From an uncultured Candidatus Peribacteria bacterium (lineage in GTDB: Bacteria > Patescibacteriota > Gracilibacteria > BD1-5 > UBA2023): a DNA stretch of 64,000 nucleotides. The stretch spans positions 12,233 to 76,232 of the forward strand of contig CAZINU010000004.1 of NCBI GenBank assembly GCA_964540725.1. Direction: 5' to 3'. Below the pieces are notes generated by a model that worked only from the letters and a program-made list of their open reading frames with translations, did no database searches and was not told the DNA's origin. Below, piece by piece: positions 45,860 to 47,821 of the stretch (position 1 is its first letter; every line of letters starts with the position of its first letter). A program made the translations under genes and the position numbers.

Positions 45860-47821
45860 ATGCCCCACTCCCAACGCCCCGCTTCCCCGGAAACCCTTTC
45901 CGGAATCTCCTCTTCCGCCTCCTCCCGCGCCCTCGCCGCCCTCCGCGCCACCCGCTCCCGCGCGTTCCGTGGCTTCACCCTCGTGGAACTCATCGTCGTC
46001 ATCACGATCCTCGCCATCCTCGCCACCATCGGTTTCCTCGCCCTCTCCGGGTACACCTCGGACGCGGGCAGGTCCTCCGTCCTCTCCAACCTCCGCACGG
46101 TGGAGAAGGGCCTTTCCGTCACCGCGACCACCGCCGGCTCCTTCCCGGCCCCGACGGGCGGCGTTCCCGTGACCTTCTCCGGCGGCACCGCCTGGGTCCA
46201 GTGAACGGCCGGAAAAACCGTCATGGCGGAAATATGAATGGACGAACCCCCGAAGGACCCCGCGGGGAACGCCGAGTTCGAATACTCCGTCACCGCCAAC
46301 GGTCTCGAGTTCCAGGTTGGCTCCGCGTACCTCGCGGGAACGGCGCACGCCCCGGCCCCCGGAATCCCCTCCGCCCTCGCCGCGGACTCCGTCCCCGTCC
46401 CCAAGGCCGCCGTCTCCGGCAACTACAACGGCCTCTTCGTCCCCGTGAACGCCGGCGGGACGAACTTCCTGGTCCCCGCCCCGTCCATAATCCTCTCCGA
46501 CCTCTCCGTCCCCGAGCTGAAGTCCGCCCCCGCCTCCGGCCCCTCCTTCGTGGCCGACGGCCTCCCGGGAACCCCGGCCTCCTGGTCCGGGAAGGTCGCG
46601 GGCCTTTCCCAGACGGGAATCGCCTTCCCCGCGGCCAAAACCGCCGCCTACTCCTCCGCGACCGAAGCCTTCCCGGCGACGTCGACCGGCGTCGCCGCCC
46701 TCGCGGAAACCCTCGCGCAGGCGTACTCCGGCACGAGCCTCGCCGCCCTCCCGAAGGTTTCCGCGGTCGTGAAAGCCTCCGCCGCCGGCGATTCCTCCGG
46801 CCTCGCTTCCGCCGTCGCGGGGGCCGGGGTCTCCTCCCTCGGGCGGAACCTCGCCCCGGCGGTCGCCGCCCTCGCGGGCGACGTCCCCGCCGCCGGCTCC
46901 TCCGGCGGAAGCTCGGGAACGCCCGCGACGCCCGTCGACGGCGCGTGCGGGACTCCGAACGGCCAGACGCTCGTTTCCGCCCCCTCCGAAAACCTCTGTT
47001 CTCCCGGAACCCCCTCGGCCGTCGCCGACGGAGCCTCGTGGACGTGGTCCTGCGCCGGGACGGACGGCGGGGCGACTGCGAGCTGTTCGGCGGCGAAGCC
47101 GGCCGCGACGATCATCGGAAACGACGATTCCGGAAGGGGTTGGTCCGACGGGGCCTACGCCGTTTCGTGTTCCGGCTACCTGAACGCCCCGGCGGGATAT
47201 TCGTACTCCGGGTCTACTGGCAACGGCGTATACCAAATCGATCCGGACGGAGCGGGGGGATTCGCCGCCTTCAAGGCGTACTGTGACATGACGACGGACG
47301 GAGGGGGGTGGACCCGCTTTGTTAAATATCGGGATTCAATCGACCGCTCCTCGGTATGCGTAGCGAAATCCACCGCCGTTTCGTGTTCAGGGTACAAAAT
47401 CGGTTTGAACGGTGAATATTCGGAAATCCTGTTGAACGGTTGCGTCGATGGTGCGAAGACCACTATCCTTGTCGATATTCCACAAGTCATCAAGGACGCT
47501 TGGGTATCGTACGAAGGCGTTGACGGCGTCACTCCCGGAAGCGGGGCGTTCCGTTCGTGCGGCTCGACCGTTTCCAGAAAAGAGGGCGGAACTTGGCATT
47601 ATGGACACGAGCGCAATCCCTCCGCAACAGAATTCGAAACCCTGCACTTCGCCTCTAGCTGTATTAATTCGTGAATAGATTCCTGGTCGTATGCGAAATG
47701 GGGTGCTATCGATGCTGGCAATTCCGATCGAAGTTATTGGGGGACGGTTAACGGAACCGACCACTCTCGGTCATGAGGCGATACGTATTACGATGATTGG
47801 ATTTGCGCTTACGTTCGGTAG
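45860..47821 (+). CDS. Type IV pilin-like protein with a C-terminal fibrinogen-related (FReD-like) globular domain
   Basis: Prepilin signature RG-FTLVELIVVITILAILA. Fragments are joined by TGA at 46202, 46235, 47672 and 47774. Cys-rich module ACGTPNG...LCSPG...WTWSCAGTDGGATASC. FReD-like [32 protein letters not shown]. TAG stop at 47819-47821. Confidence 0.75.

What the first reader, a model, noticed from the sequence alone, without database searches (positions are those of the whole stretch)
45860..47821. Type IV pilin fused to a fibrinogen-like (FReD) globular domain
The N-terminus carries a class III signal (RG|FTLVELIVV...). The C-terminal approximately 190 residues contain [32 protein letters not shown], which matches the hallmark FReD core (vYCDMdtdGGGWTv) of ficolins and tachylectins that bind acetylated sugars. 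Between them lie an Ala/Pro/Ser-rich spacer and a Cys-rich module. The last 49 residues exist only if TGA 47672 and 47774 are sense. A pilus-borne lectin would be a plausible host or prey recognition device for an episymbiotic cell. I do not recall this fusion being described.
Basis: partly seen in the sequence, partly recalled or inferred. Interest (0 to 1): 0.7.

Follow-up and report, generated by a model that had tools for sequence, protein, structure and literature searches.

The report
Modular pilin with fibrinogen-like head
This is a real gene of a Gracilibacteria-type bacterium (UGA read as glycine) for a type IV pilin carrying a long flexible stalk and a partly fibrinogen-like, probably adhesive head; pilins with grafted heads are a known kind and this domain combination is already listed in databases, so it is a useful but not surprising example.

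Summary
Window 45860..47821 (+) is one 653-codon gene, provided four in-frame TGAs are sense, not two. The window uses code 25: four TGAs align with conserved Gly in homologues. The prepilin signal passes the curated cut-offs of Pfam N_methyl and TIGR02532. The motif [12 protein letters not shown] passes NCBIfam GGGWT_bact (56.9 bits, cut-off 30) and Pfam Fibrinogen_C (25.2, cut-off 22).

Similarity to fibrinogen-related domains (FReDs) covers only the first ~60 residues of the head. The remaining ~165 residues match no FReD and no PDB chain. They form a very rare subfamily whose closest members are phage-borne. Two AlphaFold runs failed, so neither a full FReD fold nor acetyl-sugar binding is shown.

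The fusion is not new as an architecture. Raynaud et al. 2021 list pilin + Fibrinogen_C among 264 "modular pilin" architectures. About 5% of bacterial GGGWT proteins listed here have prepilin N-termini.

The new context is a Gracilibacteria family that shares this pilin, stalk and Cys-module scaffold but carries different heads. One sibling is 98% identical up to residue 413 and then carries Laminin_G_3. GC3 falls from 0.89 to 0.55 at that junction.

Best reading: a tip-displayed adhesin pilin with a swappable head. No pilus machinery lies in the window.

The parts
45860..47821 (+). Whole gene: 653-codon modular prepilin. It has four in-frame TGA (Gly) codons at 46202, 46235, 47672 and 47774. 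The stop is TAG at 47819-47821.
45805..45833 (+). Sigma-70-like promoter match (TTGACA, 17 nt spacer, TACCAT, with TG). It overlaps the upstream terminator hairpin.
   Evidence: 1 site found against 0.2 expected. This is a consensus match only.
45815..45842 (+). Terminator-like hairpin plus T-run that ends the upstream thioredoxin gene. It isolates the pilin gene from upstream transcription.
45860..45973 (+). Leader peptide, aa 1-38, basic near the cleavage site (..RATRSRAFRG|). It is unusually long. Its SSRAL..LR..R.R.F pattern is shared with the closest relative, P0258.
45974..46054 (+). Alpha1-N helix of the mature pilin, FTLVELIVVITILAILATIGFLALSGY, with Phe at +1 and Glu at +5.
   Evidence: N_methyl and TIGR02532 are above cut-off. 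It aligns with S. sanguinis PilE1, geopilin and GspG in the PDB.
46055..46339 (+). Globular pilin head, GspG-like (..VTFSGGTAWVQ[G]TAG..KDPAGNAEFEYSV..EFQVGSAY). It contains TGA 46202 and TGA 46235.
   Evidence: TIGR01710 aligns aa 37-151 with profile positions 1-110 of 134, but at 29.5 bits, below the cut-off. The region is conserved in Gracilibacteria relatives.
46340..46939 (+). Stalk of about 200 aa, rich in Ala, Ser, Gly and Pro. Its start (SGNYNGLFVPVNAGGTNFLVPAPSIIL) is conserved in the family. GC3 is 0.93.
46940..47098 (+). Cys module of 53 aa (CG..NG..LC..G..WTWSC.G.DGG..SCSAAK). Identity with sibling P0124 ends abruptly at its last residue, aa 413.
   Evidence: It has no Pfam or NCBIfam hit.
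47132..47320 (+). Fibrinogen-like N-terminal module of the head, aa 425-487. It holds the conserved Cys437 and Cys475 pair and [14 protein letters not shown].
   Evidence: NF040941 at 56.9 bits and PF00147 at 25.2 bits. PDB FReDs and intelectins match. hhalign gives probability 99.2% over columns 2-60.
47321..47818 (+). Subfamily-specific remainder of the head, aa 488-653, with 6 Cys, the EFET, YGH and WGA.DAG.S motifs, and the C-terminal strand ICAYVR. It contains TGA 47672 and TGA 47774. GC3 is 0.55.
47862..47901 (+). Intrinsic-terminator-like hairpin with an 18-bp stem, followed by a T-run. It closes a monocistronic unit.

Best explanation
The gene encodes a modular type IV pilin of a Gracilibacteria-type (code 25) bacterium.

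Inferred mechanism, from established type IV pilin biology:
- A prepilin peptidase cleaves after Gly38 and methylates Phe39.
- The hydrophobic alpha1-N helix with Glu5 then inserts the protein into a type IV filament. Given its bulk, the most likely position is the tip.

Shown from the sequence:
- A stalk of about 200 aa, rich in Ala, Ser, Gly and Pro, plus a small Cys module holds out a disulfide-rich head of about 230 aa.
- The first ~60 residues of the head are homologous to subdomain A and the GGGWT strand of fibrinogen-related domains.
- The remaining ~165 residues belong to a rare, compositionally foreign subfamily.

Inferred function: the head is a ligand-binding (adhesion) module used to recognise the surface of a host or prey cell. 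The ligand is unknown. A glycan is plausible but not shown.

The pilin-stalk scaffold behaves as a socket. Close relatives carry other binding heads on the same scaffold, which implies head swapping by recombination.
For: Gene and genetic code. Four TGAs align with conserved Gly. Homologues conserve the sequence beyond the C-terminal TGAs.

Pilin.
- N_methyl and TIGR02532 score above their cut-offs.
- The alpha1-N helix matches solved pilins.
- The head and leader are conserved in proteins that NCBI names from 'Candidatus Gracilibacteria bacterium'.

Fibrinogen-like module.
- NF040941 gives E=1.5e-15.
- PDB FReDs and intelectins match at E down to 1e-9.

Binding role and swapping.
- Sibling P0124 is 98% identical over 287 aa up to ...SCSAAK and then carries Laminin_G_3 (E=4e-20).
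- Other family members carry Laminin_G_3, FISUMP, InlB B-repeat plus DUF1566, DUF285, or a canonical FReD.
- GC3 drops from 0.89 to 0.55 at the same junction.
- The closest full-length head homologue, P0003 (52% identity), sits in phage contigs next to a Laminin_G_3 virion-protein-like gene.

Precedent.
- S. sanguinis PilB and PilC are adhesive modular pilins, and 264 modular architectures are catalogued, including pilin + Fibrinogen_C (PMC8179133).
- Saccharibacteria minor pilins with lectin-like domains contribute to host binding (PMC11623550).
- Gracilibacteria encode and express type IV pili (PMC11452946).
Against: - No PilB, PilC, PilD, PilM or PilT gene lies in the 64 kb. The gene is monocistronic among housekeeping genes. 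The same holds for pilin-FReD genes in other organisms.
- The 38-aa leader and the ~260-aa connection between pilin head and binding head are much longer than in the characterised modular pilins.
- The fold of the last ~165 residues is unknown: AlphaFold pLDDT 52 and 40, hhalign against canonical FReDs 0.1%, no PDB hit.
- No ligand-binding residues can be mapped.
- No expression or localisation data exist.
Confidence: 0.6

Rival explanations
1. A cell-surface adhesin that uses the prepilin-type N-terminus only as a secretion signal and membrane anchor. It stays in the cytoplasmic membrane or forms a short pseudopilus. The long stalk projects the head through the envelope, and the protein is not part of an extended pilus.
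For: - The stalk is very long and probably disordered.
- There is no pilus operon context here or in L040 and L041.
- Weak similarity of the head extends to the T2SS pseudopilin GspG.
Against: - The alpha1-N helix has all the assembly features: Phe1, Glu5 and a 21-residue hydrophobic stretch.
- The characterised modular pilins are incorporated into filaments (PMC8179133).
- Gracilibacteria express type IV pili.
Confidence: 0.2
2. The head is a true, complete FReD lectin that binds acetylated sugars, as ficolins, tachylectin-5A and FIBCD1 do.
For: - The N-terminal FReD module is significant.
- The head is about 230 aa, close to the 221-position Pfam profile.
- It ends in a hydrophobic-x-hydrophobic-R strand (ICAYVR), as canonical bacterial FReDs do (..EMKVR).
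- Foldseek hits are exclusively FReDs or intelectin.
- Pilin + canonical FReD fusions exist: P0140 matches Pfam positions 2-206 of 221, and P0286 is another.
Against: - There is no similarity beyond ~60 residues by Pfam, PDB profile search or hhalign.
- The DxDxD Ca2+ site and the WWY..C..NLNG motifs of canonical FReDs are absent from the target's subfamily.
- The regions after GGGWT in bacterial proteins fall into 145 BLAST clusters.
- TM-scores are only 0.17-0.26, on a low-confidence model.
Confidence: 0.25
3. Assembly chimera. A Gracilibacteria pilin N-terminal part was joined in silico to a foreign, for example phage, fragment at about 47099.
For: - There is a sharp GC3 break at the junction.
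- The closest head relatives lie in GC 0.32 contigs, phage (L001-L003) or unassigned (L042).
- An independent assembly of SRR5011273 breaks just downstream of the gene.
- A 255-aa stretch identical to another contig's protein, P0124, is a repeat that can confuse assemblers.
Against: - The low-GC part contains two in-frame TGAs inside conserved sequence, one of them at a Gly column. It is therefore decoded with code 25 like the rest of the genome. The L001 phage contig ends some genes in TGA and the short L042 contig ends its copy of the domain in TGA, so both read TGA as stop.
- The reading frame is continuous across the junction.
- The gene ends at a proper terminator, followed by host genes.
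- Relatives such as P0010, P0021 and P0286 show the same pilin + GGGWT design independently.
Confidence: 0.05
4. TGA is a stop codon here. The region then holds separate short ORFs (126 aa, 478 aa and remnants), or a pseudogene, and not one protein.
For: Public code-11 gene calls split the region this way: P0001 is the 478-aa ORF.
Against: - TGAs lie at conserved Gly positions in Pth, the pilin head and the binding head.
- Conserved motifs continue in frame after each TGA.
- Many housekeeping genes in the window need TGA read-through.
Confidence: 0.02

Closest known systems
Modular type IV pilins: Streptococcus sanguinis PilC (pilin + concanavalin-A-like lectin module) and PilB (pilin + vWA module). 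Raynaud et al. 2021, PMC8179133; Shahin et al. 2023, PMC9934059.
   Same: An N-terminal pilin module defined by the N_methyl motif is fused to a C-terminal module that is not specific to pilus biology and has a predicted binding role. A sibling of the target (P0124) even carries the same superfamily as PilC, Laminin_G_3 / ConA-like.
   Different: - The head type differs: partly fibrinogen-like.
- About 260 aa of stalk and Cys module replace a short loop.
- The leader is 38 aa.
- The organism is a code-25 CPR bacterium.
- No experimental data exist.
Database-listed pilin + Fibrinogen_C proteins. These are IPR012902 - IPR002181 (8 proteins) and IPR012902 - IPR013545 - IPR002181 (2 proteins) in Raynaud et al. 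Dataset S1, and the NCBI 'fibrinogen-like YCDxxxxGGGW domain-containing protein' entries with N_methyl, for example P0078 from Candidatus Paceibacterota.
   Same: The same two signatures occur in the same order. 7 of the 120 best head homologues have prepilin N-termini, and 6 of 137 further representatives combine a prepilin N-terminus with a GGGW module.
   Different: The part of the head after GGGWT is unrelated in sequence among them. Only P0021 shares the target's subfamily together with a pilin N-terminus. My reading of the IPR numbers (IPR002181 = fibrinogen C-terminal globular domain, IPR013545 = GspG C-terminal) comes from my own knowledge.
Animal fibrinogen-related lectins (ficolins, tachylectin-5A, FIBCD1, tenascin and angiopoietin FReDs) and intelectins.
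   Same: The first ~60 residues are shared: the Cys pair of subdomain A and the YCDM..GGGWT strand.
   Different: No detectable B or P subdomain, Ca2+ site or acetyl pocket. Like intelectins, the protein keeps the N-terminal FReD signature on a divergent remainder.
Lectin-like minor pilins PilX1 and PilX2 of Saccharibacteria TM7x (PMC11623550).
   Same: They are CPR episymbiont pilins with extra C-terminal domains. PilX2 is implicated in host binding, and both are proposed to recognise glycans.
   Different: The extra domains have different folds: beta-jelly-roll (L-type lectin-like) and beta-propeller. Those genes lie in pilus loci. The target is an isolated gene.
Phage protein P0003 (292 aa) on GC 0.32 phage contigs of up to 347 kb (L001-L003).
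   Same: It is 52% identical over the whole head, including the C-terminal ICAFVR. It is likely a surface-recognition protein: a Laminin_G_3 gene matching a virion structural protein PHROG lies about 3.4 kb downstream, with several other genes between.
   Different: It has no pilin part, uses the standard code and has very different base composition. Its function is also untested.

Membership tests
Type IV pilin / prepilin (class III signal peptide) | N-terminal methylation motif scoring above the curated cut-offs | tested here: met
   PF07963 scores 30.3 bits (cut-off 21.2). TIGR02532 scores 28.6 bits (cut-off 16.3).
Type IV pilin / prepilin (class III signal peptide) | Gly at -1, Phe at +1, Glu at +5, then about 20 hydrophobic residues (alpha1-N) | tested here: met
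   The sequence reads ..AFRG|FTLVELIVVITILAILATIGFLA. It aligns from residue 1 with solved pilins.
Type IV pilin / prepilin (class III signal peptide) | Short basic leader (about 5-30 aa) | tested here: inconclusive
   The leader is basic near the cleavage site but 38 aa long from the only in-frame ATG, GTG or TTG. The closest relative, P0258, has a similar 25-aa leader.
Type IV pilin / prepilin (class III signal peptide) | Globular alpha-beta pilin head after alpha1 | tested here: inconclusive
   The GspG profile aligns aa 37-151 but scores 29.5 bits against a cut-off of 88.85. The region is conserved in the Gracilibacteria family.
Type IV pilin / prepilin (class III signal peptide) | Prepilin peptidase and filament assembly machinery in the genome; incorporation into a filament | not testable with these tools
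   None is present in the 64-kb window. The rest of the genome could not be retrieved. The literature reports type IV pili in Gracilibacteria.
Fibrinogen-related domain (Pfam Fibrinogen_C PF00147) | Profile match above the gathering score | tested here: met
   25.2 bits (27.3 bits for the head alone) against a cut-off of 22. The match covers only profile positions 11-51 of 221.
Fibrinogen-related domain (Pfam Fibrinogen_C PF00147) | Subdomain-A Cys pair and the YCDM..GGGWT strand | tested here: met
   Cys437 and Cys475 plus GGGW fall in the nearly invariant or invariant columns of 88 homologues. hhalign gives probability 99.2% over columns 2-60.
Fibrinogen-related domain (Pfam Fibrinogen_C PF00147) | Subdomains B and P, which hold the central sheet, the Ca2+ site and the ligand (acetyl) pocket | tested here: not met
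   No sequence similarity was found: hhalign against canonical bacterial FReDs 0.1%, PDB profile search with no hit, and the canonical motifs absent from the subfamily. The fold remains open because AlphaFold gave pLDDT 52 and 40 and Foldseek TM-scores were 0.17-0.26.
NCBIfam NF040941 GGGWT_bact (fibrinogen-like YCDxxxxGGGW domain) | 46-position domain model scoring above its cut-off | tested here: met
   56.9 bits against a cut-off of 30, E=1.5e-15, aa 451-486 aligned to positions 10-45 of 46.
Modular pilins (sensu Raynaud et al. 2021) | An N-terminal pilin module plus an extra module not specific to pilus biology | tested here: met
   The architecture IPR012902 - IPR002181 is listed in their Dataset S1.
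Modular pilins (sensu Raynaud et al. 2021) | A direct role of the extra module in a pilus-mediated function such as adhesion | not testable with these tools
   This is inferred only from analogy, from head swapping and from the phage homologue.

The most novel reading that the evidence does not exclude
The ~50-60-aa fibrinogen-like GGGWT module may be a conserved scaffold onto which bacteria and phages graft fast-evolving, mutually unalignable receptor-binding regions. Such heads would be exchanged horizontally between phages, predatory bacteria (many named hits are Bdellovibrio or Myxococcota) and CPR episymbionts. In Gracilibacteria, a conserved pilin-stalk-Cys-module 'socket' would accept these and other heads (LamG, FISUMP, InlB-repeat) by recombination at a fixed junction. 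This would give strain-level switching of host or prey specificity, analogous to tail-fibre tip swapping in phages.
Probability: 0.3. Interest if true: 0.6.

Novelty: new member of a known kind. Interest (0 to 1): 0.35.

Why it matters
How CPR and Patescibacteria cells find and hold their hosts is largely unknown, and type IV pili are the leading candidates. This gene, with its relatives, offers a concrete and testable set of candidate specificity determinants: one conserved pilin scaffold with interchangeable binding heads. One of those heads is shared with a phage. If the head-swap picture holds, host range in Gracilibacteria could be read, and perhaps predicted, from the head carried by these pilins. 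The finding also shows that the bacterial 'fibrinogen-like' annotation rests on a short N-terminal signature and should not be read as ficolin-type sugar specificity.

Tried and rejected
Structure prediction.
- Homologue P0003 with an 88-sequence alignment gave pLDDT 52, with only the FReD-like N-terminal module confident.
- A clean 8-sequence subfamily alignment gave pLDDT 39.7.
I treat this as weak.

Remote homology of the part after GGGWT.
- hhalign against canonical bacterial FReDs gave 0.1%, and against 30 other subfamily clusters at most 59%.
- A PDB profile search gave no hit.

Search for more subfamily members.
- A profile search of 5.8e9 protein clusters found 3.
- An exhaustive HMMER search of 1.84e9 representatives found only P0129, P0132 and fragments beyond those already known.
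- IMG/VR and INPHARED phages gave nothing.

Locating the organism and P0124.
- The genome contigs and metagenome-contig scans returned only distant LamG hits.
- P0124 is not on record for genomic context.
- Look-ups with LysRS and Der found only short Logan contigs that lie inside the window.

Other points.
- My first stop-codon argument is circular, because the ORFs were defined by TAA and TAG. I rely on the Gly alignments instead.
- No tRNA-Gly(UCA) lies in the window.
- A literature search found no paper that combines fibrinogen-like domains with pilins or Patescibacteria.
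Full report
**1. What is in the sequence**

Window 45860..47821 (+) opens with ATG and closes with TAG at 47819-47821. It contains four in-frame TGAs at 46202, 46235, 47672 and 47774, which are codons 115, 126, 605 and 639. Under table 11 the region breaks into ORFs of 126 and 478 aa plus remnants. Public code-11 gene calls indeed hold the 478-aa piece as P0001. The first two are equally necessary, because they separate the prepilin N-terminus from everything else.

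**2. Genetic code**

The window reads TGA as glycine, on four lines of evidence.
- In the peptidyl-tRNA hydrolase gene (55751..56689, -), the N-terminus reads MKLVV-TGA-L-TGA-NPG. Both TGAs align with the Gly residues of the universal GLGNPG motif in solved Pth structures, at E=7.6e-40.
- TGA 46202 aligns with a Gly that is invariant (W.QG) in five relatives, three of which NCBI names as from 'Candidatus Gracilibacteria bacterium'.
- TGA 47672 aligns with Gly in the two closest head homologues that cover it, CVSGSDSW and CVSGIDSW.
- Many other housekeeping genes in the window (TrmD, Fmt, the MraY-like gene, LysRS, the CNNM-family gene) also need read-through.

The 49 residues after TGA 47672 carry the most conserved motifs of the whole head: DSW.Y..WGA.DAG.S and ...ICA[FY]VR. 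The single 653-aa product is therefore real. The organism is a code-25 member of the Gracilibacteria/Absconditabacteria group, with about 60% GC.

**3. Anatomy** (coordinates)

| Part | aa | nt | Note |
|---|---|---|---|
| Leader | 1-38 | 45860-45973 | basic near the cleavage site |
| Alpha1-N helix | 39-65 | 45974-46054 | FTLVELIVVITILAILATIGFLALSGY |
| Pilin head | 66-160 | 46055-46339 | GspG-like |
| Stalk | 161-360 | 46340-46939 | Ala/Ser/Gly/Pro-rich |
| Cys module | 361-413 | 46940-47098 | 4 Cys |
| Fibrinogen-like module | 425-487 | 47132-47320 | Cys437, Cys475, [14 protein letters not shown] |
| Subfamily-specific remainder | 488-653 | 47321-47818 | 6 more Cys |

The gene is bracketed by terminator-like hairpins at 45815-45842, which ends the thioredoxin gene, and at 47862-47901, with an 18-bp stem. 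A sigma-70-like promoter match lies at 45805-45833. The gene therefore looks monocistronic.

**4. The pilin part**

- Pfam N_methyl (30.3 bits, cut-off 21.2) and TIGR02532 (28.6 bits, cut-off 16.3) are both passed.
- Gly at -1, Phe at +1 and Glu at +5 are present.
- The helix aligns from its first residue with S. sanguinis PilE1, geopilin and GspG structures.
- A GspG profile aligns through aa 151 but scores below its cut-off. The head fold is therefore plausible, not shown.
- The 38-aa leader is long, but there is no later ATG, GTG or TTG in frame. The closest relative, P0258, shares the leader pattern.

**5. The 'FReD' part**

- The signature is statistically solid. NCBIfam NF040941 'GGGWT_bact' gives E=1.5e-15. 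Pfam Fibrinogen_C scores above its gathering cut-off. PDB FReDs (FIBCD1, tenascin, angiopoietin, ficolins, tachylectin-5A) and intelectins match at E down to 1e-9 with a subfamily profile.
- Every one of these matches stops after about 60 residues. Pfam covers positions 11-51 of 221. hhalign against canonical bacterial FReDs (P0031, P0050, P0072, which carry the full WWY..C..NLNG..EMKVR pattern) aligns columns 2-60 only.
- A profile of the remaining ~165 residues hits nothing in the PDB. By hhalign it is unrelated to the canonical FReD cluster (0.1%) and to 30 other bacterial clusters (at most 59%).
- Across 513 bacterial GGGWT domain instances, the part after GGGWT falls into 145 BLAST clusters.
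- Two AlphaFold runs on the closest complete homologue gave pLDDT 52 and 40. Only the N-terminal module was confident.

Two weak hints favour a complete but diverged FReD-like fold. The head has about the right size. It ends in a hydrophobic-x-hydrophobic-Arg strand, as most family members do, the canonical ones included. I conclude that homology to the FReD N-terminal subdomain is shown. A full FReD fold is open, at about 40%. Acetyl-sugar binding is unsupported.

**6. How rare is the head, and where are its relatives**

An exhaustive HMMER search of 1.84 billion representatives found 7024 proteins at E<=0.001, most of the listed ones matching through the short module, including giant proteins with up to 15 copies. 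Only a handful match through to the C-terminus: P0021, P0004, P0129, P0132 and fragments, plus P0002 and P0003.
- P0003 is 52% identical. It lies on GC 0.32 contigs of up to 347 kb that are clearly phage (phrog_1250 E=7.5e-53, a homing endonuclease at 1.8e-45, endonuclease VII). It lies about 3.4 kb upstream of a Laminin_G_3 gene that matches a virion structural protein PHROG.
- P0170 is on another GC 0.32 contig.
- P0021 is a second pilin + same-subfamily fusion, from an unrelated pilin lineage.
- Nothing was found in INPHARED or IMG/VR.

**7. The scaffold and head swapping**

A search with aa 1-424 found a family of pilins. Three of its members are named by NCBI as Gracilibacteria. The six members read share the alpha1-N helix, the head and the SGNYNGL...GGT.Y...PSII segment, and most of those carry a stalk and one or two Cys modules. 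Their C-termini differ:
- Laminin_G_3: P0124, P0263
- FISUMP: P0262, P0264, P0267, P0275
- InlB B-repeat + DUF1566: P0259
- DUF285: P0265
- a canonical FReD: P0286
- another GGGWT type: P0010

P0124 is 98% identical to the target over 287 aa, and 100% identical over the last 255 of these, up to ...SCSAAK (aa 413, nt 47098). After that point there is no similarity, and P0124 carries Laminin_G_3 at E=4e-20.

In the target, GC3 falls from 0.89 upstream of this point to 0.55 in the part after GGGWT. Confidently called genes in the window have GC3 of about 0.7-0.8. The low-GC part nevertheless carries two TGA-Gly codons. It is therefore natively code 25 and not a mis-joined fragment from a standard-code source.

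An independent Logan assembly of SRR5011273 carries identical flanking genes but breaks in the terminator just after the gene. That is consistent with a repeat-rich or heterogeneous locus.

**8. Context**

No pilus machinery gene lies in the 64 kb. A second prepilin-type gene lies at 38244..38949 (-). Pilin-GGGWT genes of other organisms are likewise isolated among housekeeping genes. The rest of the genome could not be reached.

**9. Comparison with what is known**

Raynaud et al. 2021 (PMC8179133) defined 'modular pilins'. They showed that S. sanguinis PilB (vWA module) is an adhesin and noted PilC (ConA-like lectin module). They catalogued more than 1,200 proteins in 264 architectures. Their Dataset S1 lists IPR012902 - IPR002181 (8 proteins) and IPR012902 - IPR013545 - IPR002181 (2 proteins). 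NCBI's NF040941 already names such proteins, including a Paceibacterota protein with N_methyl, P0078. Saccharibacteria minor pilins with lectin-like domains contribute to host binding (PMC11623550).

No paper in the held library discusses fibrinogen-like pilins. The kind is therefore known and the architecture is listed but uncharacterised. What this locus adds is a rare head shared with a phage and a clear case of head exchange on a conserved Gracilibacteria pilin scaffold.

**10. Verdict**

| Question | Answer |
|---|---|
| Observation | confirmed |
| Best explanation | tip-displayed adhesive modular pilin with a swappable, partly fibrinogen-like head (confidence 0.6) |
| Novelty | new member of a known kind |
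| Interest | 0.35 |

Noticed in passing
window 10166..17554 (+), 17571..18170, 18177..18755 (+): A giant Rhs/YD-repeat protein gene of about 2,200-2,460 codons with 20 in-frame TGA-Gly codons. It matches RHS_repeat at E=5e-58 and DUF6531, with a weak AHH-nuclease hit at its tip. A low-GC stretch follows, possibly immunity genes, and then an orphan Rhs C-terminal cassette that repeats the ...YDPLGKTYRK...PxxxxDPxGL core end. This is a polymorphic-toxin locus in a code-25 CPR-type genome.
   Followed up: partly
window 38244..38949 (-): A second prepilin-type gene of 235 aa, with leader MRKSPDA|FTLTELLVSVAVLAVV and N_methyl at 23.8 bits (cut-off 21.2). It is wedged between the MraY-like and Fmt genes. 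It has no extra module.
   Followed up: partly
window 46940..47098 (target aa 361-413); also P0258, P0259, P0286: A Cys module of about 50 aa (CG..NG...LC..G.....W.W.C.G.NGG...SCSA) has no Pfam or NCBIfam model. It recurs, sometimes in tandem, just before the variable heads of Gracilibacteria pilins and before other GGGWT domains. It marks the recombination junction with P0124.
   Followed up: partly
whole window: Code 25 (TGA = Gly) is combined with about 60% GC (up to 69% at 12-16 kb). No tRNA-Gly(UCA) lies in the window; only tRNA-Arg(CCT) at 322..396.
   Followed up: partly
L038 (Logan SRR5011273 contig) against window ~47872: An independent assembly with identical AcrB...LysRS genes starts 174 nt upstream of AcrB. 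It therefore breaks inside the terminator right after the target gene. This suggests that repeats or strain heterogeneity at this locus defeat short-read assembly.
   Followed up: no
L001-L003 (JGI 3300068284-6; P0003 at L001 10001..10879): Low-GC (0.32) phage contigs of up to 347 kb encode a 292-aa protein whose C-terminal ~220 aa are 52% identical to the target's head. A Laminin_G_3 gene matching a virion structural protein PHROG lies about 3.4 kb downstream. P0003 also hits phrog_10681 (unknown function) through the GGGWT module.
   Followed up: partly
proteins P0121-P0257: The bacterial GGGWT module occurs in 7024 representative proteins. These include giants of 4,000-5,500 aa with up to 15 copies. 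The sequence after GGGWT is unalignable between most of them (145 clusters among 513 instances). Named hits are enriched in Bdellovibrio, Myxococcota and 'Deltaproteobacteria' MAGs.
   Followed up: partly
window 48045..53812 (+): Directly downstream of the pilin gene lies an RND efflux set: an AcrB-type pump of 1097 aa, a TetR-like regulator and a HlyD-type membrane-fusion protein. RND pumps are typical of diderm bacteria, so this seemed worth noting in a CPR-type genome.
   Followed up: no
window ~19800..21938 (+): A 712-aa surface protein with a weak lamin-tail-domain (LTD) match (28.7 bits, below the 34.3 cut-off), acidic and Ser/Thr/Pro-rich low-complexity tracts and a C-terminal membrane anchor. 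It is another candidate envelope or adhesion protein.
   Followed up: no
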